Source: Escherichia phage ES2-BCU-3. From it: a stretch of DNA of 53,728 nucleotides. Under the pieces are notes generated by a model, which made no database searches, was not told the DNA's origin, and was given only the letters and a program-made list of their open reading frames with translations. The stretch lies in sequence record PV733669.1, one strand, 5' to 3'. Of this stretch, positions 31,619 to 51,501 are shown piece after piece; positions within the stretch are counted from its first letter, which is position 1; every line of letters begins with the position of its first letter. The translations under genes and the position numbers were made by a program.

Positions 31619-31650
31619 AGTTAAAAGGGCGACCTAAGCCGCCCGTCTCC

Positions 31651-32535: not shown

Positions 32536-33128
32536 TACAGCAGTTCCAGTTGGTTAGGGTTAGTGTGTGCATTGATAATTGCCTGGATGTCAGGTTTGAC
32601 CCAACCTTCTGGCTTAACAATGTCCTGGCCTGATTTGTGCTTACTGTTGCTTGCATCAGGTTTAGCACGTTCTTTCGCCATGTTGGCTTTCTGTACAGCG
32701 TCCCATGCATCATCCAGCGGCCAGTTGTTTGCAGCACACCAGTTGATAAGATGGATGATAAGCTGTGCCAGGCGGTCGCAGTGAGTGTCTTCGGTATCTT
32801 TAACATATACACGAAGACCCTTGGCATCAAACTTCTCCATCCAGCTGCATGGGTCAATGAAATGAATAGGGTATTCAAATTCATTTGAGAACCAGGTAGT
32901 CTGGTCATACAGGTAGAGAGTACCTGCAGCGATATAGATAAGGTCAACAATGCCGTCCAGGAATTCAGCTTTGTCGCCTTCCTTGATGGCTTTCTCAATC
33001 TCATCCATCTCTTCGATGAGACGGTCATAGCGAAGTTTGAACTCAGGCTTACCGCCTTCACTGATAGGTTTGAGGTCAAACTTCTGGTGGAAAGCAGTTA
33101 CACCTGCAGCAATTTTACTGAATCGCAT
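32535..33128 (-). CDS. MazG-like nucleoside triphosphate pyrophosphohydrolase (putative)
   Basis: EEMDEIEKAIKEGDKAEFLDGIVDLIY resembles the MazG/all-alpha NTP-PPase acidic helix; ATG at 33128 with AAGGAG 7 nt upstream (track ORF extends to 33200); TAATG junction with thyA. Confidence 0.45.
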   Translation of the reverse strand: MRFSKIAAGVTAFHQKFDLKPISEGGKPEFKLRYDRLIEEMDEIEKAIKEGDKAEFLDGIVDLIYIAAGTLYLYDQTTWFSNEFEYPIHFIDPCSWMEKFDAKGLRVYVKDTEDTHCDRLAQLIIHLINWCAANNWPLDDAWDAVQKANMAKERAKPDASNSKHKSGQDIVKPEGWVKPDIQAIINAHTNPNQLELL

Positions 33129-33513
33129 CACGGAGCTCCTTACATACAGTTTCGATGAATTTACGTTTGGTCTCAGTAGACCAGATAATATGACGGGCAC
33201 GTTCTACAACGTCGTAACGGTCTTTACCCACAGGAAAGGGAACAATGAAAAGGCCAGTACGGGAGATGCGCTTGATATACGGAAACTTGCAGCGCATGGT
33301 TGTTTCAAATGCTGTGAAGGCACGTTGTACGCCAGCTGTGAATTTTACCTTATCAAACTCATATTCAATGTCTTTGGCATACTGACACACTTTGGCGAAA
33401 GCATCTGCAGGCAGATAGTCTTCACGACCAGTGTTATTGACAAAATCTATTTGACCCTGCAGACGCAGAATCCAGATGTGGTAATATGATTCGGCAACAC
33501 GTTGTAAGTTCAT
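33115..33513 (-). CDS. Hypothetical protein
   Basis: 132-aa ORF with AGGAGAG RBS and its own promoter. Confidence 0.5.
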   Translation of the reverse strand: MNLQRVAESYYHIWILRLQGQIDFVNNTGREDYLPADAFAKVCQYAKDIEYEFDKVKFTAGVQRAFTAFETTMRCKFPYIKRISRTGLFIVPFPVGKDRYDVVERARHIIWSTETKRKFIETVCKELRDAIQ

Positions 33514-33541
33514 TGTACTCTCTCCTAATGAAATATAACTT

Positions 33542-33570
33542 ATTATACTACATCACTCTCTAGGGGTAAA
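33542..33570 (-). promoter_or_regulatory. Sigma70-like promoter (TTTACC-17-TATAAT), minus strand
   Basis: Reverse complement of ggtaaa(33565..33570) and attata(33542..33547). Confidence 0.5.
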
Positions 33571-33600
33571 GCACTTTTTTATATTCGGGTAAAAGAAAAA

Positions 33601-33624
33601 GGACCAGCGCAAACTGGTCCTTTT
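33601..33624 (-). terminator. Rho-independent terminator (works on either strand)
   Basis: Stem ggaccag(33601..33607)/ctggtcc(33614..33620), loop cgcaaa; minus-strand reading is followed by TTTTTCTTTT. Confidence 0.7.
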
Positions 33625-34087
33625 GGCAGGGCTGGATGATTACACAAGGAGTAGAAACAATGCAACTGTCAACGTCATGCACTTCCGGTACACTTGCTGT
33701 GCGCTCTCCTCGGCGAAGTATATAGCGTTACACTTATCACAAGGATTAAGAGAAGAGCACACAGCAAGTAACCAGCTTAGTTGTGGTGTTTCAGCGACCT
33801 GGTGTTATTGTGGATAACCTGCCATCCCGCGAGGATGTCAAAAAGGAAAATGCCAAAACACCACAACTAAATTGGTTGACCGCCATCTACATCCGGCGCC
33901 AGGGTCAAGGTAGCGAGCCAATACCCCTTATGGCGTCCTGGGACTCAAACCCAGGCATCATGGCATTTCCCAAATCTCGGTCAGCGAGCAGAATTGAACT
34001 GCATTCACTGGACACCCTCACTGAACACCAACGCACCAGGCTTAATCAGTTTGTTGAAAAGGAGAGTTGTAAGGATGTCCATTGAAT

Positions 34088-34105
34088 GCACCTCCGAAGA
34101 GGTGC
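34088..34105 (-). other. Stable UUCG-tetraloop hairpin just 3' of the 156-aa gene
   Basis: Minus strand reads GCACCUC-UUCG-GAGGUGC; no U-tract follows, so more likely an RNA-stability or processing element than a terminator. Confidence 0.5.
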
Positions 34106-34123
34106 GTTCGTGATCAGCGCCGA

Positions 34124-34594
34124 TTATTCTGCGTCGTTGTCAACGTCAGTTTCGGTATTACCGCCAGCCAGTGCAGCCGCTTCAGCTTTAGCAGCTTCGG
34201 CTTTCTGACGAGCTTTTTCAGCTTTCTCTTCAGCTTTGCGAATCTGCTCAGCAGCTTTCGCTTCGGCTTTTTCAGCTTTAGCTTTAGCACGCGCTTCAGC
34301 TTTCAGACGCTTCTCTTCGGCTTTAGCCGCATCACGTTCTGCTTTCGCAGTATCGATGCGTTTAGCCAGAACTTTACCGGTCGCTTTACGCCAGTAGGTC
34401 AGCTGAGAAGAAACGGTGCCGCGGGACATTTCGGTTTGTGCAACCACTTTGTCCATAACGTCAGAGCTGGATTCGCCTGCTTCGTGTGCCTGGTCAGCCA
34501 GGTCCCAAACAAAACGCGCACCAGTGCCAGCTGCCGGGTACATAACGCCGTTTACTTCTTCTTTACCAGATACAAAAGTCAGTTTCTCGCTCAT
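34124..34594 (-). CDS. Ala/Lys/Glu-rich low-complexity protein
   Basis: 156 aa; C-terminal half is near-repetitive KAE/AKA helix (AKAEEKRLKAEARAKAKAEKAEAKAAEQ...); GAGGA RBS; own promoter. Confidence 0.55.
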   Translation of the reverse strand: MSEKLTFVSGKEEVNGVMYPAAGTGARFVWDLADQAHEAGESSSDVMDKVVAQTEMSRGTVSSQLTYWRKATGKVLAKRIDTAKAERDAAKAEEKRLKAEARAKAKAEKAEAKAAEQIRKAEEKAEKARQKAEAAKAEAAALAGGNTETDVDNDAE

Positions 34595-34639
34595 AATTTT
34601 TTCCTCGTCTACAGGGCTTAATGTTTGTTTACGTGGTTA

Positions 34640-34668
34640 AGTATAACCCTTTTAAAAAAGTATGTACA
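34640..34668 (-). promoter_or_regulatory. Early-type promoter (GTGTACATA -35 region, TATACT -10), minus strand
   Basis: Minus strand reads GTGTACATAC-N15-TATACT; tgtaca at 34663..34668, agtata at 34640..34645. Confidence 0.5.
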
Positions 34669-34697
34669 CATCTTTTTTAAACTTTTTTCATACGCGT

Positions 34698-34931
34698 CTA
34701 AAAAGGAATGTCATACTCAAAATCTTTACAACCGGATGCTTGTATCTTCGGCGGCGGTAACTTGCCTCCGAACCGTGTACAAACATCTTCCTTATAATAG
34801 AGGCACTGCACACAACTCATATCCTGTAAAAAGATGATGAGTTGTCTACGAGCTTCTGGCGGCAACGTCTTTGCGATTGCTGCCACTTTATTGAATTCAT
34901 CTTGGTTGGCCAAAACCATTCCCCCAGTCAT
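34698..34931 (-). CDS. Small Cys-rich protein
   Basis: 77 aa with CVQC...C...C spacing suggesting a zinc-binding fold; overlaps the 3' end of the helicase gene by 35 nt. Confidence 0.4.
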   Translation of the reverse strand: MTGGMVLANQDEFNKVAAIAKTLPPEARRQLIIFLQDMSCVQCLYYKEDVCTRFGGKLPPPKIQASGCKDFEYDIPF

Positions 34932-36570
34932 AGTTCATGATTTGTGGGTAAGGGCGTTTAATCCATACCTTCAGTTGCTTAGGTACAGCAAGCTCACCCT
35001 TACGTTTGATAAACTCGTCACATGTTGATGGAGGTTCAGTGCCTGCAGCATTCTTCCACCAAGCATCTGCCATATTCTTAGCAGACCCATAAGCTTCAAC
35101 GTTGACCCATGTTGTGTATATCTCCAGGTTAGAATAGTATATTACCTTTATACTATCGGGTCTTCCTGGTTTCTGAAACAACGAATAGTTTACCAGCGTA
35201 ACTGATTTGTCTACAACACGAAGCTGTCCATTCGTCATTACTTCTTCTTCCGAAGATTCCATTGCAATAGCAGGACCTGACGTCTGGAATGTGAATTCAT
35301 GCCCGCAAGCAGGATATACACCGTTTTCATCAGGCTTACTTCCTTTAGCAGGATGCTTACAGAACTTGGCTGCAAATCCACTTACCTGATGGCAGATAGG
35401 ACATTCCTTGCCACCAACAGTCTTTGGTCCGCCTTTCTTTTTCTTCTTGCCAAGACGCGGAGGTACTGCAGGGTCGTCGATAGGACCAAGGTCAATAGTG
35501 TTAGATGTAAAGTCCATTACCAGGCAGTTCTCTTTACCCGGCGCAGTACGTAAACCACGACCCAGAATCTGTACCCACAAAGCGACAGAAGTGGATGGTC
35601 TGAGAATCCCGAGCATATCAATCTCTGGATAGTCAAACCCTGTTGTCAATACGTTTACGTTAACACAGACACGAGCTCTACCACTTGTAAACTCATCAAG
35701 CAGATGCTCTCGCTCTTTCTTACTTAACCCGCCATGTATGACAACTGTCTTCCATCCGCGTATCTCGAACTCATCGGCTACTTCATACGCATGGTCAACA
35801 CTTACTGCAAACACAAGTATGTGATGCCTGTCACTACCATAGTGCATCATCTCACGAATGGCTGCACCGGTTATGTCTGCCTGATTGACTGCTGCTTCAA
35901 GTTCGGAAGGTATGTAATCACCCATACGTGTTCCGACATTCGAAGTGTCAATCTTAGTTAATACTTTCTTATTGACAAGGCGTGACAAGAAACCTTCATT
36001 CACCAGACGAGTGAATGAGTCAGGTGTTGTCAGGTCATAACAAATGTCTGTAAAGATACCGCAATCAAGTAAGTGACCACCGGCTAAACGATACGGAGTT
36101 GCTGTAAGACCAGTAACCTTAATCTTCGGGTTAACTTCCTTGAAGTGCGCAATAACCTTACGATAAGTTGTCTCGGACTTCTCTGGAACAAGATGAGCTT
36201 CGTCAATGAAGATAAGGTTGAACTTACCAGCTTCTTCCAGGTTGTTGATGATGGACTGAATTGATGCTACAACAATACGACCTGATAAGTCTTTACGACC
36301 TACAGATGATGAGTAGATTGAAACTGGTGCATGTGGCCAGTGACGAGTAATAGCCTTGGCATCCTGCTCAACAAGCTCTTTAACGTGTGTCAGGATAAGA
36401 ATACGTTGACGAGGATATTGAGTAAGAATATCCTTCATAAGCATACCGAGTACAGGAGACTTACCTGACCCAGTAGGCATGACAATCAATGGATTGCCTG
36501 AATGTGAATTGAAGTAAGACCACCAAGCGGTGACTGCTTCTTGTTGATACCAGCGAGCTTCAAAAGCCAT
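34897..36570 (-). CDS. DEAD/DEAH-box (SF2) DNA helicase
   Basis: Motif I MPTGSGKS, II FIDEAH, III LTATP, VI QILGRGLR; C-terminal Cys pairs (CPICH...C) suggest a zinc finger. Confidence 0.8.
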   Translation of the reverse strand: MAFEARWYQQEAVTAWWSYFNSHSGNPLIVMPTGSGKSPVLGMLMKDILTQYPRQRILILTHVKELVEQDAKAITRHWPHAPVSIYSSSVGRKDLSGRIVVASIQSIINNLEEAGKFNLIFIDEAHLVPEKSETTYRKVIAHFKEVNPKIKVTGLTATPYRLAGGHLLDCGIFTDICYDLTTPDSFTRLVNEGFLSRLVNKKVLTKIDTSNVGTRMGDYIPSELEAAVNQADITGAAIREMMHYGSDRHHILVFAVSVDHAYEVADEFEIRGWKTVVIHGGLSKKEREHLLDEFTSGRARVCVNVNVLTTGFDYPEIDMLGILRPSTSVALWVQILGRGLRTAPGKENCLVMDFTSNTIDLGPIDDPAVPPRLGKKKKKGGPKTVGGKECPICHQVSGFAAKFCKHPAKGSKPDENGVYPACGHEFTFQTSGPAIAMESSEEEVMTNGQLRVVDKSVTLVNYSLFQKPGRPDSIKVIYYSNLEIYTTWVNVEAYGSAKNMADAWWKNAAGTEPPSTCDEFIKRKGELAVPKQLKVWIKRPYPQIMNYDWGNGFGQPR

Positions 36571-36628
36571 TTAACGTCTCCTCACTTAATATAGACATTA
36601 TATCACTTCCATGTGATAACGTACACTT

Positions 36629-37504
36629 TTACTTTAAGGAGAAGGTGACTGGTTCTTCACTTTGTGGGAAGACGTCTGCAGGTTTATAATCCCCGCATGC
36701 TGCCAGTTGTGTTTGAATTGTTTCAAGGTTATGGTTATGCTTTTTACAGTACCATACCTTGCCCTGTACAGGAGATGAATATGCACAGGTCCGGCAGTTC
36801 TTATCTGGTGCAGCACCTTTGTGGCACAGATGATGGTATTCACACATACCTACACGACACTGCCACCACAACGGCGATTCAGAAAGCTTCGGCATATCAA
36901 GACCAGACTCAGCAGTAATCACGGCTTCTGCTTTTGACAGCTGCATATCACTTTCTAACAGGTCAAGAGTAATCTCTTCATAATACATCTCATCGGTGTT
37001 CTTGTTGATTGCGATGTATAACGCCCTGTCAAGCTTCAGCTCTCGCATATAAACCTGCATCTGAGAATAGTGAACAGGCTTACTTGCTTTAACAGACTTG
37101 TGCTTAATCAGCTCTTTGAATGACTTGTCGCCGTGTGTCTTAAACTCGGTTAAAGCCCATACGCCATTGAACTTGATTACACAGTCACACGAACCAGAAA
37201 AGATGTCGTTGAATTTACTGATTCGCCATTGCTTACCCGTCTTAGGGTTTACAGGCAATACTTCTTCACAAACAGAGCGAAGCCAACCGATAATACGGTC
37301 TTCTTCCAGCGTACCACGGTTAAACAATCGTAACTGCTTAGCTGTGAACTTCTCTTTGTATGACCAGTGCAATACGTGCCACAGGTAACGGTAGCACTCG
37401 TGTCCAATTTGTGAAGCGCCTAAATGTCCGCGACGTTCTTCCTTCTCGTGGGCTTCTACAATAGCAACATCAATACGTTTGCCAATCTTATCCAGCAATC
37501 CCAT
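36629..37504 (-). CDS. PD-(D/E)XK nuclease with Cys cluster (Cas4/RecB-like, putative)
   Basis: D...EFK-type core (DCVIKFNGVWALTEFK), an N-terminal Cys (HECY) and C-terminal C-x4-C-x5-C cluster plus CRTC...C...H; start placed at ATG 37504 with GGAG RBS (alternative ATG 37540; track 37627). Confidence 0.45.
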   Translation of the reverse strand: MGLLDKIGKRIDVAIVEAHEKEERRGHLGASQIGHECYRYLWHVLHWSYKEKFTAKQLRLFNRGTLEEDRIIGWLRSVCEEVLPVNPKTGKQWRISKFNDIFSGSCDCVIKFNGVWALTEFKTHGDKSFKELIKHKSVKASKPVHYSQMQVYMRELKLDRALYIAINKNTDEMYYEEITLDLLESDMQLSKAEAVITAESGLDMPKLSESPLWWQCRVGMCEYHHLCHKGAAPDKNCRTCAYSSPVQGKVWYCKKHNHNLETIQTQLAACGDYKPADVFPQSEEPVTFSLK

Positions 37505-37505
37505 T

Positions 37506-37970
37506 CTAGTCTCCTGCAAGGTCTCCAGGTTCAAACTCATCGTAGATAACTCCTGCTCCCACAACCAGGTGAGAGACGGCGTTTGCCATGCTGTCTTTCC
37601 ACTTGGATTGCTTAGCCTTGTGTACAAAGGCTACAACACGTCTGACGTGTAAATTGGCAGTAAGCATCTTCGCACAATGTTCGCACGGAGGATATGTGAT
37701 GTATACAGTAACCGGGCCTAACGAGGAAGCGTCTAACTCCTTCCTTATATTAGCTAGTGCATTTACCTCACTATGTATAGTGAGAGCGTTCTTAAGCTCA
37801 TTAGGCACCTCCTTTAAGGCGTCTAACTGCTCAGGCAAACCGTTATAACCTGTTGATATAATTCGCTTTTTGGCATCGACGATTACACATCCAACCTGGC
37901 GCTTAGGGTCCTTAGACCAGCTAGCAATCTCCTGAGCCACTCGTAAAAAACGCTTATCCCACTTATCCAT
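37506..37970 (-). CDS. dCMP deaminase
   Basis: Zinc-binding motifs HSEVNA and PCEHC; ATG at 37970 with GGAGGA RBS (track ORF starts at TTG 37988). Confidence 0.75.
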   Translation of the reverse strand: MDKWDKRFLRVAQEIASWSKDPKRQVGCVIVDAKKRIISTGYNGLPEQLDALKEVPNELKNALTIHSEVNALANIRKELDASSLGPVTVYITYPPCEHCAKMLTANLHVRRVVAFVHKAKQSKWKDSMANAVSHLVVGAGVIYDEFEPGDLAGD

Positions 37971-37981
37971 AGTATCCTCCG

Positions 37982-38010
37982 CATACAAAAACAGGAGCCG
38001 AAGCTCCTGT
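37982..38010 (-). terminator. Rho-independent terminator with UUCG tetraloop, minus strand
   Basis: Minus strand reads ACAGGAGC-UUCG-GCUCCUGU followed by UUUUUGUAU; stems at 37991..37998 and 38003..38010. Confidence 0.6.
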
Positions 38011-38030
38011 TTGATTATACCTGGGTTAGA

Positions 38031-38570
38031 TTACTCTTCCCAAGGAGCCGGTTCGTCGGTCTTACCAGACGTTGCACCAGCAGCGGCACTTGCCCCCGCA
38101 CCCGCAGTCACTGTTTGTTTCTGCGAGGTCGTTTGAGATGCACCTTGCGTTGAACCAACAGCAGTAGTTGCTTCAGACGCATTTTTGTATTCTTTAATAT
38201 CGTTGCGGTCGTCGTACTGACCGGTCTTATCAATCTTAATACCGACCTTACCCATTACGATGCGGTTTTCCAACAGGTCAGTGCTGGTAAGTTCAACGAT
38301 ACCAACTGCACGGCACAGCTGAGACAGTTTGCGGTGGCCAATATCAACAGCCTGTTGATTCGGGTTAGAGTAGGTAATCATGTCAAACACGACACGGTTA
38401 GCGAACTCACCTTCATTAACACGCAAACGAAGGGACAGGTATGAACCAGTTCCTGCAGCAGTCGGCTTAAGCTCGACTTCTTCAATCATCAGTTGATACC
38501 AGTTCTTAGGAATTGGGTCAAACGATGCTTGTGGTTCGACTTCTGCAGAGTTAAACTGTAATTCAGCCAT
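38031..38570 (-). CDS. Hypothetical protein, possible ssDNA-binding protein (DUF669-like)
   Basis: 179 aa with Gly/Ala/Thr-rich acidic C-terminal tail ending PAPWEE; adjacent to the RecA-like ATPase gene. Confidence 0.4.
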   Translation of the reverse strand: MAELQFNSAEVEPQASFDPIPKNWYQLMIEEVELKPTAAGTGSYLSLRLRVNEGEFANRVVFDMITYSNPNQQAVDIGHRKLSQLCRAVGIVELTSTDLLENRIVMGKVGIKIDKTGQYDDRNDIKEYKNASEATTAVGSTQGASQTTSQKQTVTAGAGASAAAGATSGKTDEPAPWEE

Positions 38571-38639
38571 GGGTTTTACCTTTTCAATAGTTTAAGTTTT
38601 GGTTTAACGCTTTACCGGCAGCGTTCGGCCGTGGAACAC

Positions 38640-38669
38640 ATTATACGCCACTTTTTATCGCGGCGTAAA
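38640..38669 (-). promoter_or_regulatory. Sigma70-like promoter (TTTACG-18-TATAAT), minus strand
   Basis: Reverse complement of cgtaaa(38664..38669) and attata(38640..38645). Confidence 0.45.
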
Positions 38670-38674
38670 CGTTT

Positions 38675-39565
38675 TTATTCGCCGGATTCTTCTTCGGCTT
38701 TAGCCTGTTCAGCCGCCTTCTTGGCAATCCAAGCCATATGCCTTTCTTTCGATTCATCTGAACCGATTTTGGTAACACCACCTGGGTCAGTGTTATTCGC
38801 TTGTTCTGCTTCACGCCCAGTCATAAGCACATAGCTATCAGACTCAGCATGGTAGTACCAAAGCTGATAAGGATGATACCCCTGCAGCTTGTCGTAAATC
38901 CAGCCGAGGTTAGCAGGTTCACGTGCATCCAGCTCACGGCCTGGTGCGTTACGACACTTAGCTTCCCATTGGAAGTCAGGTTGTGTCTGCAGGTAACGTT
39001 CACAGTTACCATCCTTGTCAGGTGCAGTCATGCGTAAAGCAAGTACAGCATCCATAAGATAAGGAAGTTGTTTCGGTAACTGCTGACCAGGCATGAGAGG
39101 CGAATAAAGCATTGCACCGGTAACTTCATCTTTATTCTTCTCCAGCTTACAAAGGTAAGCAACGCTGAAAGGCAGGTCACGGAACTGACGCATGATATAC
39201 ATCATCTTGTCGTTCGTGTTACCATACGCCTGGCGTTTGTCATTGACCTGAGTCTTCTCATAGTCAAGACATACTTCAGCGACGTCAGAAAGAGAATCGA
39301 AGATAAGGTGCTTGTACTTCTTCGCTTCTTTGCTTTCAGTTAGCCATTTGTACAGGTCCAGAATATCCTGGAACTTACCAATGGGAGTTGAGTCAATGTC
39401 TGCATCAGCTACAGACATCAAGCCACCTTCAGCATCGATGATAAGCACTTCACCGTGAGGCAGTGTTTTAGCCAGGCTGGTCTTACCTACACCAGACTGG
39501 CCGTACACCGCAACCTTTGGCAGTTTGTTTTCAACTGCCGATTTGGTAGAGCGGATTTGTACCAT
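38675..39565 (-). CDS. RecA-like AAA ATPase (Sak4-type recombination protein, putative)
   Basis: Walker A GQSGVGKTS near the N-terminus, Walker B-like LIFDSL; sits beside SSB-like and nuclease genes. Confidence 0.55.
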   Translation of the reverse strand: MVQIRSTKSAVENKLPKVAVYGQSGVGKTSLAKTLPHGEVLIIDAEGGLMSVADADIDSTPIGKFQDILDLYKWLTESKEAKKYKHLIFDSLSDVAEVCLDYEKTQVNDKRQAYGNTNDKMMYIMRQFRDLPFSVAYLCKLEKNKDEVTGAMLYSPLMPGQQLPKQLPYLMDAVLALRMTAPDKDGNCERYLQTQPDFQWEAKCRNAPGRELDAREPANLGWIYDKLQGYHPYQLWYYHAESDSYVLMTGREAEQANNTDPGGVTKIGSDESKERHMAWIAKKAAEQAKAEEESGE

Positions 39566-42422: not shown

Positions 42423-42455
42423 TAAAGAAGGGGCTTGTGTTAAGCCCCTTGTTAA

Positions 42456-50296: not shown

Positions 50297-50347
50297 TTTC
50301 AATCATGAACTATCGCAACTTTGATAGTTCATTGTTGAAACTATTGC
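50297..50347 (-). promoter_or_regulatory. Conserved-flank intergenic hairpin (early operon element 3)
   Basis: Minus strand reads TAG-TTTCAACA-[ATGAACTATC...GATAGTTCAT]-GATTGAAA; 10-bp stem 50305..50314/50323..50332. Confidence 0.5.
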
Positions 50348-50796: not shown

Positions 50797-50842
50797 TAAT
50801 TTCAATCCAGACCTCTCGTAAGAGGTCTGTCAGAAATTACTC
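50797..50842 (-). promoter_or_regulatory. Conserved-flank intergenic hairpin (early operon element 4)
   Basis: Minus strand reads GAGTAA-TTTCTGAC-[AGACCTCT-UACG-AGAGGTCT]-GGATTGAAA; 9-bp stem 50808..50816/50821..50829. Confidence 0.5.
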
Positions 50843-51455: not shown

Positions 51456-51501
51456 TCCAATCATGACAACTTTGGTAAGTTGTCATTGTTGGAAATTACT
51501 C
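51456..51501 (-). promoter_or_regulatory. Conserved-flank intergenic hairpin (early operon element 5)
   Basis: Minus strand reads GAGTAA-TTTCCAACA-[ATGACAACTT-ACCA-AAGTTGTCAT]-GATTGGA; stem 51464..51472/51477..51485; a second palindrome ttgtcaa/ttgacaa lies at 51433..51451. Confidence 0.5.

What the first reader, a model, noticed from the sequence alone, without database searches (positions are those of the whole stretch)
34088..34105. UUCG-tetraloop hairpins at the 3' ends of minus-strand genes
Two minus-strand 3' elements use the very stable UUCG tetraloop (34088..34105 without a U-tract; 37991..38010 with one). The first looks like an RNA-stability or processing element rather than a terminator.
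Basis: seen in the sequence. Interest (0 to 1): 0.25.

Follow-up and report, generated by a model that had tools for sequence, protein, structure and literature searches.

The report
Two conserved UUCG-capped phage RNA hairpins
Two stable RNA hairpins in a Salmonella phage are real and conserved: one is an ordinary transcription terminator, and the other opens an unannotated, highly structured non-coding RNA stretch that sits where a related phage carries tRNA genes.

Summary
The window is a ZCSE2-like Salmonella myophage (Loughboroughvirus). Both C(UUCG)G hairpins exist on the minus (coding) strand at the stated coordinates. They are the only two in 53.7 kb; shuffles give 0.03.

Site 2 (38012..37989) is a genuine intrinsic terminator or attenuator between an SSB-like DUF669 gene and the dCMP deaminase gene. 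In relatives the stem changes by fully compensatory substitutions, while GC-UUCG-GC and the U-run stay.

Site 1 (34105..34088) is not a terminator. It has no U-tract. A 26-nt block around it is invariant in the relatives aligned, and its 31-mer recurs in about 59 phage records. Only loop position 2 varies (UUCG or UACG, both UNCG).

Site 1 abuts, with no linker, a covarying 18-19-bp helix (P2). Together they open about 500 nt of structured non-coding RNA (z = -7.2) that ends in a strong terminator. An Erwinia relative keeps P1-P2 with compensatory changes, directly before two tRNA genes.

The stretch also holds a roughly 100-135-nt RNA with two T-loop hairpins. That RNA is widespread in phage tRNA arrays and absent from Rfam 15.

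Site 1 is most likely a boundary or stability clamp. That mechanism is inferred; no transcript data exist. The hairpins themselves are a known kind. The surrounding RNA locus is the novel part.

The parts
34088..34105 (-). Site 1 = P1: GCACCUC-UUCG-GAGGUGC hairpin, no U-tract. The invariant block is GAACGCACCUCUNCGGAGGUGCAUUCAAUG (34108..34079).
   Evidence: invariance and the UUCG/UACG loop; A-U to C-G compensatory change in Erwinia phage SOI901
34003..34087 (-). P2: long helix that starts with no linker after P1. The 5' strand 34087..34069 (AUUCAAUGGACAUCCUUAC) pairs with the 3' strand 34021..34003 (GUGAGGGUGUCCAGUGAAU): 5 bp, an A.G mismatch, then 13 bp. The G.U pairs fix the strand as minus.
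   Evidence: 18 pairs, 5 with changes on both sides, 98.9% paired; slid controls 37-52%; manual alignment including SOI901 and the KE25 type
34026..34041 (-). Conserved apical motif GCCUGGUGCGUUGGUG inside P2. It is unique in the window. In SOI901 it sits in a second long hairpin after the tRNAs.
33874..34008 (-). T-loop element, a structured RNA with two T-arm-like hairpins: T1 at 34002..33988 (GCAG-UUCAAUU-CUGC) and T2 at 33955..33937. A closing helix pairs UGACC (33983..33979) with GGUCA (33881..33877). It is a member of a phage-wide family found in tRNA arrays.
   Evidence: model R1: 52.5 bits, E = 7e-9 in the window; covariation; no Rfam or ARAGORN match
33685..33876 (-). Two further long hairpin domains. 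One has a 15-20-bp stem, UUAGUUGUGGUGUUU...AAACACCACAACUAA. The other is a roughly 26-bp hairpin, CUGGUUACUUGCUGUGUGCUCUUCUC...GAGGAGAGCGCACAGCAAGUGUACCGG.
   Evidence: compensatory differences seen by eye in the alignment, not counted formally
33597..33624 (-). Strong intrinsic terminator (12-bp stem plus U-run) that ends the gp36 plus non-coding RNA transcription unit. A promoter-like site for the next gene follows at 33570..33542.
34124..34594 (-). Upstream ORF (156 aa, Ala/Lys/Glu-rich C-terminal half; PHROG 28664, function unknown). Its stop lies 18 nt before P1. A promoter-like site lies at 34668..34640.
   Evidence: the ortholog was detected in fHy-Eco03 virions according to the record note
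37983..38012 (-). Site 2: intrinsic terminator or attenuator, AAACAGGAGC-UUCG-GCUCCUGUUU plus UUGUAU.
   Evidence: stem covaries; GC-UUCG-GC and the U-run are kept; position kept in SOI901 with a different loop
38031..38570 (-). Gene upstream of site 2: DUF669, single-strand-DNA-binding-protein-like.
37506..37970 (-). Gene downstream of site 2: dCMP deaminase. Its SD (GGAGGA) and ATG start 18 nt after the hairpin.

Best explanation
The two hairpins are different devices that share a C(UNCG)G cap.

Site 2 is a Rho-independent terminator, probably leaky (an attenuator). It sits after the SSB-like DUF669 gene. It would give that gene a defined, hairpin-protected 3' end and lower transcription into the downstream enzyme genes (dCMP deaminase, Cas4-like exonuclease, helicase).

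Site 1 (P1) does not terminate. It is an RNA-level structural clamp at the junction between the gp36-like mRNA and a co-transcribed array of stable, structured RNAs. It stacks directly on a long helix (P2). Together P1 and P2 form a leader module.

That module is expected to remain as the folded 3' end of the gp36 mRNA once the downstream RNAs are cut away by host tRNA- or rRNA-type processing enzymes (RNase P, E or III). It would then block 3'-to-5' exonucleases. It would also keep the translated upstream RNA from mis-pairing with the downstream RNA folds.

Shown here: the structures, their conservation and covariation, the strand, the absence of a U-tract, and the genomic context. Inferred: co-transcription, cleavage, and the stabilising or insulating effect.
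For: Site 2
- The hairpin plus U-run is seen.
- In SE4, yarpen and UViG_3300045988_135134 the stem sequence changes (CAGGAGC, UAGGGGC, GGGUAGC) with fully compensatory partners, while GC-UUCG-GC and the U-run are retained.
- Erwinia phage SOI901 has a terminator hairpin in the same gap.
- The flanking genes are an SSB-like protein, needed in bulk, and catalytic enzymes.

Site 1
- There is no U-tract in any relative.
- A 26-nt block is invariant in genomes whose neighbourhood is only 77-82% identical.
- Only loop position 2 varies, U or A, which keeps UNCG. About 19 of the 59 GenBank records carry UUCG and about 40 carry UACG.
- SOI901 keeps the hairpin with one compensatory A-U to C-G change.
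- P2 starts with no linker and covaries.
- G.U pairs in P2 would be A.C on the other strand, so the RNA is the minus-strand transcript.
- In SOI901 the P1-P2 module sits between the gp36 ortholog and tRNA-Pro/tRNA-Gln. That is exactly where a leader would be left after RNase P cutting.
- In the window a tRNA-array-associated RNA element takes that place.
- No terminator-like site lies between the promoter-like site upstream of gp36 (34668..34640) and the strong terminator at 33624..33597.
- The 546-nt stretch folds at -210.7 kcal/mol, z = -7.15.

Precedent
- CUUCGG hairpins are common in phage intergenic regions. One stabilises T4 gene 32 mRNA (PMC8948821, summarising Tuerk 1988 and Gorski 1985).
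Against: - No transcript 5' or 3' ends, half-lives or cleavage data exist for this phage group. The S144 paper says nothing on this region.
- A plain exonuclease barrier does not need an invariant stem sequence. The zero substitutions in P1 among the aligned Salmonella and E. coli phages point to an extra, unidentified constraint such as a protein or tertiary contact.
- P2 alone is already a strong hairpin, so the need for P1 is not explained.
- Phage SPHG1 keeps P1 but has lost the P2 3' strand.
- In a short fold, the P1 extension GAA/UUC competes with the base of P2.
- The nearest-neighbour model gives UUCG no special bonus on this stem: -11.8 against -11.4 kcal/mol for AAAA. The 'very stable' claim therefore rests on published melting data (own knowledge), not on anything computed here.
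- For site 2, a sigma70-like promoter (TTGGGA-18-TATAAT, 38043..38014) overlaps the hairpin in the window, so a 5'-end role is not excluded.
Confidence: 0.55

Rival explanations
1. P1 is not about the mRNA. It is an integral helix of a trans-acting non-coding RNA made of P1, P2 and the conserved apex GCCUGGUGCGUUGGUG. That RNA would be a protein decoy or sponge, or a base-pairing RNA. The UNCG loop would only cap the helix.
For: - The stem sequence is invariant beyond what pairing needs.
- The apex motif is conserved in all relatives and re-used in a second hairpin in SOI901.
- The P1/P2 junction has no linker, which suggests coaxial stacking in one fold.
Against: - The apex motif has no complement elsewhere in the window.
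- No target or partner was identified.
- In SOI901 the apex motif sits in a different hairpin from the P1-P2 module, so P1 and the motif can be separated.
- SPHG1 keeps P1 without an intact P2.
Confidence: 0.25
2. Site 1 is a non-canonical terminator without a U-tract, or a hairpin-dependent pause site that ends or slows transcription after gp36.
For: It is a stable GC-rich hairpin 18 nt after a stop codon.
Against: - The tail AUUCAAUGG has only 3 U in 8 and is conserved as the 5' strand of P2.
- About 500 nt of covarying RNA structure and a strong canonical terminator lie downstream. These would be pointless if transcription stopped here.
- The other minus-strand intergenic terminator-like hairpins the scan lists (31644..31627, 33624..33597, 42450..42428) all have U-rich tails.
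Confidence: 0.05
3. Site 1 regulates translation. Its 3' arm GGAGGUG is a Shine-Dalgarno sequence 8 nt before an AUG (34082..34080), so the hairpin would sequester the ribosome-binding site of a small ORF.
For: GGAGGUGCAUUCAAUG is invariant in the Salmonella and E. coli phages. A 25-codon ORF follows in the window.
Against: - The ORF runs from 3 to more than 60 codons in relatives, with frame changes and unrelated peptides: 3 codons in UViG_135134 and 13 in BP63 (read).
- SOI901 keeps P1-P2 but has no start codon after GAGGGGC.
- The AUG is itself paired in P2.
Confidence: 0.03
4. Site 1 is a DNA-level palindrome (GCACCTC-N4-GAGGTGC) bound by a dimeric protein, or otherwise used as DNA.
For: It is a perfect 7+7 inverted repeat with an invariant sequence. 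The change in SOI901 also preserves the palindrome.
Against: - It is unique in the window. The only other matches have 3 mismatches, at chance level.
- The spacer varies only within UNCG.
- It is contiguous with helices whose G.U pairs and covariation are RNA-specific.
- The spacer is 6 nt rather than 4 nt in SOI901.
Confidence: 0.05
5. Site 2 acts mainly as a 5' stabiliser or processing signal for the dCMP deaminase mRNA, like the T4 gene 32 5' CUUCGG hairpin, rather than as a terminator.
For: - The hairpin lies 18 nt upstream of the start codon.
- A sigma70-like promoter (38043..38014) would start transcripts at about the 5' arm.
- The S144 record annotates a 'promoter' over the hairpin.
- The precedent is summarised in PMC8948821.
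Against: - The -10 element is not kept in yarpen or UViG_135134, whereas the U-run always is.
- The U-run has no role in a 5' stabiliser.
- SOI901 keeps hairpin plus U-run with another loop.
Confidence: 0.1

Closest known systems
C(UUCG)G hairpins of phage T4 and other phages in intercistronic regions (Tuerk et al. 1988 PNAS 85:1364; summarised in PMC8948821)
   Same: Both have the UNCG tetraloop closed by C-G. Both lie in intergenic positions on the coding strand of a virulent enterobacterial phage. Both are associated with terminators and with mRNA stabilisation.
   Different: No homology is claimed; the likeness is one of kind only. Here one hairpin is fused without a linker to a second covarying helix and opens a non-coding RNA array, which is not described for the T4 cases. 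The effect on RNA stability was not tested here.
Intrinsic (Rho-independent) terminators of enterobacteria; UUCG loops are said to be over-represented in them (d'Aubenton-Carafa et al. 1990, own knowledge)
   Same: Site 2 has a GC-rich stem, a tetraloop and a run of five U immediately after the stem. It lies just downstream of a gene, and the stem covaries.
   Different: Site 1 lacks the U-tract. Termination efficiency at site 2 is unknown. The downstream gene starts 18 nt later, so read-through is probably needed.
RNase III and RNase P processing of phage polycistronic transcripts: T7 early mRNAs, whose hairpins remain at 3' ends and stabilise them, and T4 tRNA precursor processing (own knowledge)
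   Same: A long near-perfect helix with one internal mismatch (P2) sits between a coding region and stable RNA genes. In SOI901 real tRNAs follow it.
   Different: No cleavage site was mapped. There is no sequence similarity to T7 R sites. P2 is 18-19 bp, at the lower limit for RNase III.
T4 rnaC and rnaD (species 1 and 2 RNAs): small stable RNAs of unknown function at the end of the T4 tRNA cluster
   Same: This is the analogue for the neighbouring T-loop element. Both are non-tRNA stable RNAs embedded in phage tRNA arrays and carry a T-arm-like hairpin (rnaC ends with CCGGGUUCGAAUCCCGG).
   Different: They are not homologous. Model R1 scores only the T-arms in the T4 region (at most 11.7 bits).

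Membership tests
C(UNCG)G tetraloop hairpin | Four-nucleotide loop U-N-C-G | tested here: met
   UUCG at both sites. Site 1 relatives have UUCG or UACG only. Erwinia phage SOI901 has other loops at both sites.
C(UNCG)G tetraloop hairpin | C-G closing base pair and a Watson-Crick stem | tested here: met
   Site 1 reads ...CUC-UUCG-GAG... and site 2 reads ...AGC-UUCG-GCU.... Both are closed by C-G, with 7-bp and 10-bp stems.
C(UNCG)G tetraloop hairpin | Exceptional thermodynamic stability compared with other loops | tested here: inconclusive
   The Turner-2004 evaluation gives -11.8 (UUCG) and -12.7 (UACG) against -11.4 kcal/mol (AAAA) on the site 1 stem. The extra stability is an experimental property and was not measured here.
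Intrinsic (Rho-independent) terminator | GC-rich stem-loop followed at once by a U-rich tract | tested here: met
   Site 2 has five consecutive U after GCUCCUG, then GUAU. This is kept in four lineages plus SOI901. Site 1 does NOT meet this feature: its tail is AUUCAAUGG.
Intrinsic (Rho-independent) terminator | Lies downstream of a gene on the transcribed strand, and the stem is kept by compensatory change | tested here: met
   Site 2 lies 18 nt after the DUF669 stop, and three different stem sequences all pair.
Intrinsic (Rho-independent) terminator | Transcripts actually end there | not testable with these tools
   No RNA-seq, Term-seq or in vitro transcription data were available. The S144 paper has none.
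tRNA / tmRNA (for the region that site 1 opens) | Cloverleaf recognised by ARAGORN or the Rfam tRNA, tRNA-Sec or tmRNA models | tested here: not met
   ARAGORN finds 0 genes in the window and in 9 relatives. Rfam gives nothing at gathering threshold, and no tRNA or tmRNA match up to E = 10 in 33480..34200. Only SOI901 has tRNA-Pro and tRNA-Gln in this slot.
Any Rfam 15 family (GOLLD, ROOL, YrlA, ribozymes and others) for P1-P2 and the T-loop element | Covariance-model match | tested here: not met
   There were no matches in the window at gathering threshold. Only chance-level hits appeared at E up to 10 in the window region, in a canonical copy (L033) and in SOI901.
RNase III processing stem (T7 type) | About 20 bp of duplex with an internal distortion, cleaved by RNase III | not testable with these tools
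   P2 is 5 bp, a mismatch, then 13 bp, which is compatible in shape. Cleavage cannot be tested here.
Translational operator (SD-sequestering hairpin) | A conserved start codon and ORF downstream of the sequestered SD | tested here: not met
   The ORF is 3 to more than 60 codons with no conserved peptide. There is no start codon in SOI901.

The most novel reading that the evidence does not exclude
The site 1 hairpin is the first helix of a previously undescribed multi-module non-coding RNA locus (33597..34108). This locus sits in a phage group reported to have 'no tRNA genes'.

Its core is a new, phage-specific RNA family of about 95-135 nt. The family has an invariant T-arm-like hairpin, a second covarying T-loop hairpin, and conserved GGUAAA and GGUGCAA joiners. 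It occupies tRNA-sized slots inside tRNA arrays of very different phages: Salmonella, E. coli, Cellulophaga and Rhizobium phages, and lake, marine, rumen and wastewater viromes.

I suggest it is a tRNA mimic that is processed like a tRNA and engages a tRNA-binding host factor or defence system. P1-P2 would be the processing leader.
Probability: 0.45. Interest if true: 0.6.

Novelty: new member of a known kind. Interest (0 to 1): 0.35.

Why it matters
Taken alone, the two hairpins are textbook objects: a UUCG-capped terminator and a UUCG-capped intercistronic hairpin. They add little.

Their value is as a pointer. Site 1 marks the start of about 500 nt that public annotations fill with spurious small ORFs, but which is a conserved, covarying RNA locus.

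That locus contains a member of an un-catalogued RNA family. The family travels with tRNA genes in many unrelated phages.

If the family is a processed tRNA mimic, it bears on how phages handle host tRNA-targeting defences and tRNA-processing enzymes. It would also correct gene calls in about 60 deposited genomes.

Tried and rejected
- tRNA or tmRNA genes in the window and in 9 relatives: ARAGORN found none.
- Rfam 15 at gathering threshold and at E up to 10 on the window region, on a canonical copy of the T-loop element and on the SOI901 region: only chance-level hits.
- SD plus mini-ORF reading of site 1: rejected. The ORF length and peptide are not conserved, and SOI901 has no start codon.
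- The antisense ORF annotated as gp35 in ZCSE2 (33783/33810..34085 +) and the mini-ORFs annotated in S144: open frames are not homologous across lineages. The frame is broken in SE13, KE25 and UViG, and in SOI901 the longest antisense frame overlies the tRNA slot. I treat them as spurious.
- Repeated operator idea: the palindrome is unique in the window. The GGAGGUGCAUUCAAUG block recurs only as its own P2 partner.
- Homology of the T-loop element to T4 rnaC/rnaD: rejected by the covariance model.
- An apparent likeness of the P2 3' strand to the 5' end of E. coli tRNA-Ser, recalled from memory: blastn against 5,426 E. coli genomes hit no tRNA gene.
- Literal sequence search of the literature for the T1 motif: 0 papers. 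Keyword searches found no description.
- A boxA/nut-like reading of GCGCUGAUCA upstream of P1: judged by eye to be a poor match, and it is absent in UViG_135134. Not pursued.
- MAFFT on composite P1/P2 sequences misaligned SOI901 and the KE25 type. I replaced it with a hand alignment and a counting script.
- Nearest-neighbour energies do not reproduce a special stability for UUCG.
- More distant gp36 relatives L018/L019 have a hairpin without a U-tract after the stop and a canonical terminator about 55 nt later. A P2 equivalent is not predicted, so this is an analogy only.

Full report
**Identity of the window.** The region 33000..39000 is 98% identical to Salmonella phages ZCSE2, S144, S1, PK3 and others of the genus Loughboroughvirus. 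It is 77-79% identical to about 50 Rosemountvirus phages of Salmonella and E. coli. All genes around both sites are on the minus strand.

**Observation.** Both hairpins are present as described.
- Site 1 is 5'-GCACCUC-UUCG-GAGGUGC-3' at 34105..34088. It starts 18 nt after the UAA of the 156-aa ORF 34124..34594, and its tail is AUUCAAUGG.
- Site 2 is 5'-AAACAGGAGC-UUCG-GCUCCUGUUU-3' at 38012..37989, followed by UUGUAU.
- Both are closed by C-G. With short flanks they fold at -15.4 and -20.7 kcal/mol, z about -6.
- They are the only UUCG hairpins with at least 5 bp on either strand of the window.
- 300 dinucleotide shuffles gave a mean of 0.033 such hairpins with at least 7 bp and never two.

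**Site 2.**
- The upstream gene is a DUF669, SSB-like protein. The downstream gene is dCMP deaminase, whose SD and ATG start 18 nt after the hairpin.
- In SE4 the hairpin is identical. In yarpen it is AAUAGGGGC-UUCG-GCCCCUAUU plus UUCGUAU. In the metagenomic relative UViG_3300045988_135134 it is AAAGGGUAGC-UUCG-GCUGCCCUUU plus UUAGUC.
- So three stem sequences all pair, with GC-UUCG-GC and the U-run constant. This is the signature of a selected intrinsic terminator.
- Erwinia phage SOI901 has a terminator hairpin in the same gap but with a 7-nt loop. The position is older than the UUCG cap.
- A sigma70-like promoter (TTGGGA-18-TATAAT, 38043..38014) overlaps it in the window, but its -10 is not kept in yarpen or the UViG.
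- I read site 2 as a terminator or attenuator. It would give the abundant SSB-like message a protected 3' end and reduce flow into the enzyme genes. The stoichiometry argument is inference.

**Site 1: conservation.**
- In an alignment of nine relatives, the 26-nt block GAACGCACCUCUNCGGAGGUGCAUUCAAUG is invariant. Flanking coding and non-coding sequence differs by about 20%.
- The block is also intact in the UViG, whose gp36 is only 81% identical.
- The only variable base is loop position 2, U or A.
- Among 59 GenBank records, 38 match the UACG 31-mer and 19 match the UUCG 31-mer at 99% or better.
- Both loops belong to the UNCG class. On the plus strand they would be CGAA and CGUA, which have no special standing.
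- No relative has a U-tract, so this is not an intrinsic terminator.

**Site 1 is fused to a second helix.**
- Immediately 3', with no linker, AUUCAAUGGACAUCCUUAC (34087..34069) pairs with GUGAGGGUGUCCAGUGAAU (34021..34003): 5 bp, an A.G mismatch, then 13 bp.
- On a seven-sequence alignment this helix (P2) has 18 pairs. Five carry changes on both sides, and 98.9% of cells are paired. With the partners slid by 1-3 columns only 37-52% are paired. No shuffle reached the observed covariation score.
- P1 itself never varies in that set.
- P2 contains G.U pairs that would be A.C on the other strand, so the functional molecule is the minus-strand RNA.
- The KE25 type of phage replaces the A.G mismatch by an A-U pair plus a bulged G.

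**The decisive relative is Erwinia phage SOI901.**
- After its gp36 ortholog it has GCCCCUC-CACUUC-GAGGGGC. This is P1 with an A-U to C-G compensatory change and a non-UNCG loop.
- This is followed, again without a linker, by AUUCUG.GGGCGUCCUCGAG / CUUGAGGGCGUCC.CAGAAU. This is P2 with a different sequence but the same 6 bp, mismatch, 13 bp design. The fold is -55.4 kcal/mol, z = -7.4.
- About 7 nt after that come tRNA-Pro and tRNA-Gln.
- P1-P2 is therefore a conserved leader module between the gp36 message and stable RNA genes.

**What follows P1-P2 in the window.**
- The 546 nt from 34135 to 33590 fold at -210.7 kcal/mol, against -166 +/- 6 for shuffles (z = -7.15). The stretch ends in a 12-bp terminator with a U-run at 33624..33597, followed by a promoter-like site for the next gene.
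- No terminator-like site lies between the promoter-like site upstream of gp36 (34668..34640) and that terminator. One transcription unit is the simplest reading, but this is inferred.
- Directly after P2 comes GCAG-UUCAAUU-CUGC (T1), then UCGCUGACCGAG, then a second T-loop hairpin (T2).
- A 27-nt pattern taken from T1 found 30 metagenomic and 23 IMG/VR loci. A 41-nt query from the same motif also matched Cellulophaga and Rhizobium phages, unannotated there. The 27-nt pattern hit only one MAG among 185,579 bacterial and archaeal species genomes.
- In those loci the element usually fills a tRNA-sized gap inside a tRNA array. In L031, for example, tRNAs lie at 1795-1866 and 1966-2036 and the element at 1867-1962.
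- A covariance model built from six copies finds one full-length copy per locus in 37 loci, including window 34008..33874 (52.5 bits, E = 7e-9).
- The T2 stem and an inner helix covary. There are 44 cells with changes on both sides, against 14.3 +/- 2.7 in shuffles and at most 15 in slid controls. This alignment was fitted to the model.
- The element is not a tRNA by ARAGORN or Rfam, and it matches no Rfam 15 family.
- Two more long hairpin domains follow at 33876..33685.
- Natural variants lack parts of the locus. SPHG1 lacks the P2 3' strand through T2, and rivia lacks T2 through the first long hairpin. The locus is therefore accessory.

**Protein-coding readings fail.**
- The ORF annotated as gp35 on the opposite strand in ZCSE2 and SE4 has no conserved counterpart. 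The frame is broken in SE13, KE25 and the UViG, lies elsewhere in BP63, and in SOI901 the longest antisense frame overlies the tRNA slot.
- The SD-like GGAGGUG in the P1 3' arm and the AUG at 34082 head an ORF of 3 to more than 60 codons with unrelated peptides. SOI901 has no start codon there.

**Mechanism.**
- For site 1 I favour a boundary or stability role. The gp36 message and the RNA array are made as one transcript. Host enzymes that mature tRNA arrays (RNase P at the 5' end of the first tRNA in SOI901; RNase E or III are alternatives) cut the array away. The message is left ending in P2 and P1, which block 3' exonucleases.
- During transcription, the fast-folding UNCG hairpin would also keep ribosome-unwound upstream RNA from invading the downstream folds.
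- The structures, strand, conservation and synteny are shown. Co-transcription, cleavage and protection are inferred.
- The invariant stem sequence is not explained by this model and suggests a bound factor or a tertiary contact. For that reason the rival 'integral part of a trans-acting RNA' keeps appreciable weight.

**Comparison with what is known.**
- C(UUCG)G hairpins are common in phage intergenic regions. They were first noted in T4, where one stabilises gene 32 mRNA (PMC8948821, citing Tuerk 1988 and Gorski 1985).
- UUCG-capped intrinsic terminators are ordinary (own knowledge).
- Both sites are therefore new members of a known kind.
- The T4 stable RNAs rnaC and rnaD are the nearest analogue of the T-loop element. 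They are not homologous to it.
- The S144 genome paper reports no tRNA genes and does not mention this region.

**Verdict.** The hairpins alone are of low interest. Interest is moderate because site 1 flags an unannotated conserved RNA locus and a probably undescribed phage RNA family.

**Main caveats.** There are no expression data. Few independent lineages cover P1-P2: five distinct sequences plus SOI901 and the KE25 type. Some helices were aligned by hand. E-values from the quickly calibrated model are rough.

Noticed in passing
window 33874..34008 (-); also L029-L076, e.g. L031:1867-1962 and L033 (minus strand): A roughly 95-135-nt structured RNA family with an invariant T-arm-like hairpin (GCAG-UUCRANU-CUGC), UCGCUGACCGAG, a second covarying T-loop hairpin and a closing UGACC/GGUCA helix. 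It sits inside or next to tRNA arrays in many unrelated phage contigs and in Cellulophaga and Rhizobium phages. It has no Rfam 15 match and is not a tRNA. Only one hit was found in 185,579 prokaryotic species genomes.
   Followed up: partly
window 34026..34041 (-); L010:1370-1390: The motif GCCUGGUGCGUUGGUG at the apex of P2 is conserved in all relatives. In Erwinia phage SOI901 it sits in a separate long hairpin after the tRNAs. It is unique in the window, and no target was identified.
   Followed up: partly
window 33685..33876 (-); L006:800-890: Two long hairpin domains (a 15-20-bp stem and a 26-bp stem) are conserved with compensatory differences. In KE25, fHy-Eco03 and KM the first domain is placed between P2 and T1 instead of after the T-loop element, so the modules have been shuffled. 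They are possible RNase III substrates.
   Followed up: no
window 33783..34085 (+) and 33640..34036 (-): The ORFs annotated here in public records (ZCSE2 gp35, SE4 gp23, S144 ORF46/47 and an unnamed ORF, and several in KE25/KM) overlap covarying RNA structure and are not conserved as proteins. They are probably mis-annotations.
   Followed up: yes
window 34113..34120 and 33979..33986 (-): The direct repeat CGCUGAUC / CGCUGACC flanks the P1-P2-T1 unit. Either copy could pair with GGUCA (33881..33877). It may be an alternative pairing or a duplication scar. It is absent in UViG_135134.
   Followed up: no
L023 (Salmonella phage SPHG1) 1270-1420; L009 (phage rivia) 785-840: Natural deletion variants of the RNA locus. 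SPHG1 lacks the stretch from the P2 3' strand through T2 and has lost the gp36 stop context. Rivia lacks T2 through the first long hairpin. Parts of the locus are therefore dispensable for propagation.
   Followed up: partly
window 50305..50332, 50808..50829, 51463..51486 (-): Three 9-10-bp hairpins are each followed at once by GATTGAAATTAT or GATTGGACTTAC. This is a repeated hairpin-plus-motif unit, possibly a phage-specific promoter or regulatory signal.
   Followed up: no
window 38014..38043 (-): A sigma70-like promoter (TTGGGA-18-TATAAT) would start transcription at the 5' arm of the site 2 terminator hairpin. It is kept in SE4, but the -10 is degenerate in yarpen and UViG_135134.
   Followed up: partly
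H161 NZ_CP067310.1 and H162 NZ_JBVNBN010000003.1 (E. coli 'plasmids' of about 53 kb): Two complete E. coli assemblies list a roughly 53-kb 'plasmid' that carries this RNA locus at 91.5% identity. These are most likely Rosemountvirus genomes co-assembled with the host, from carrier state or contamination.
   Followed up: no
L049:5394-5477: A hatchet ribozyme (85 bits) lies about 1.3 kb upstream of the T-loop element on one metagenomic phage contig.
   Followed up: no
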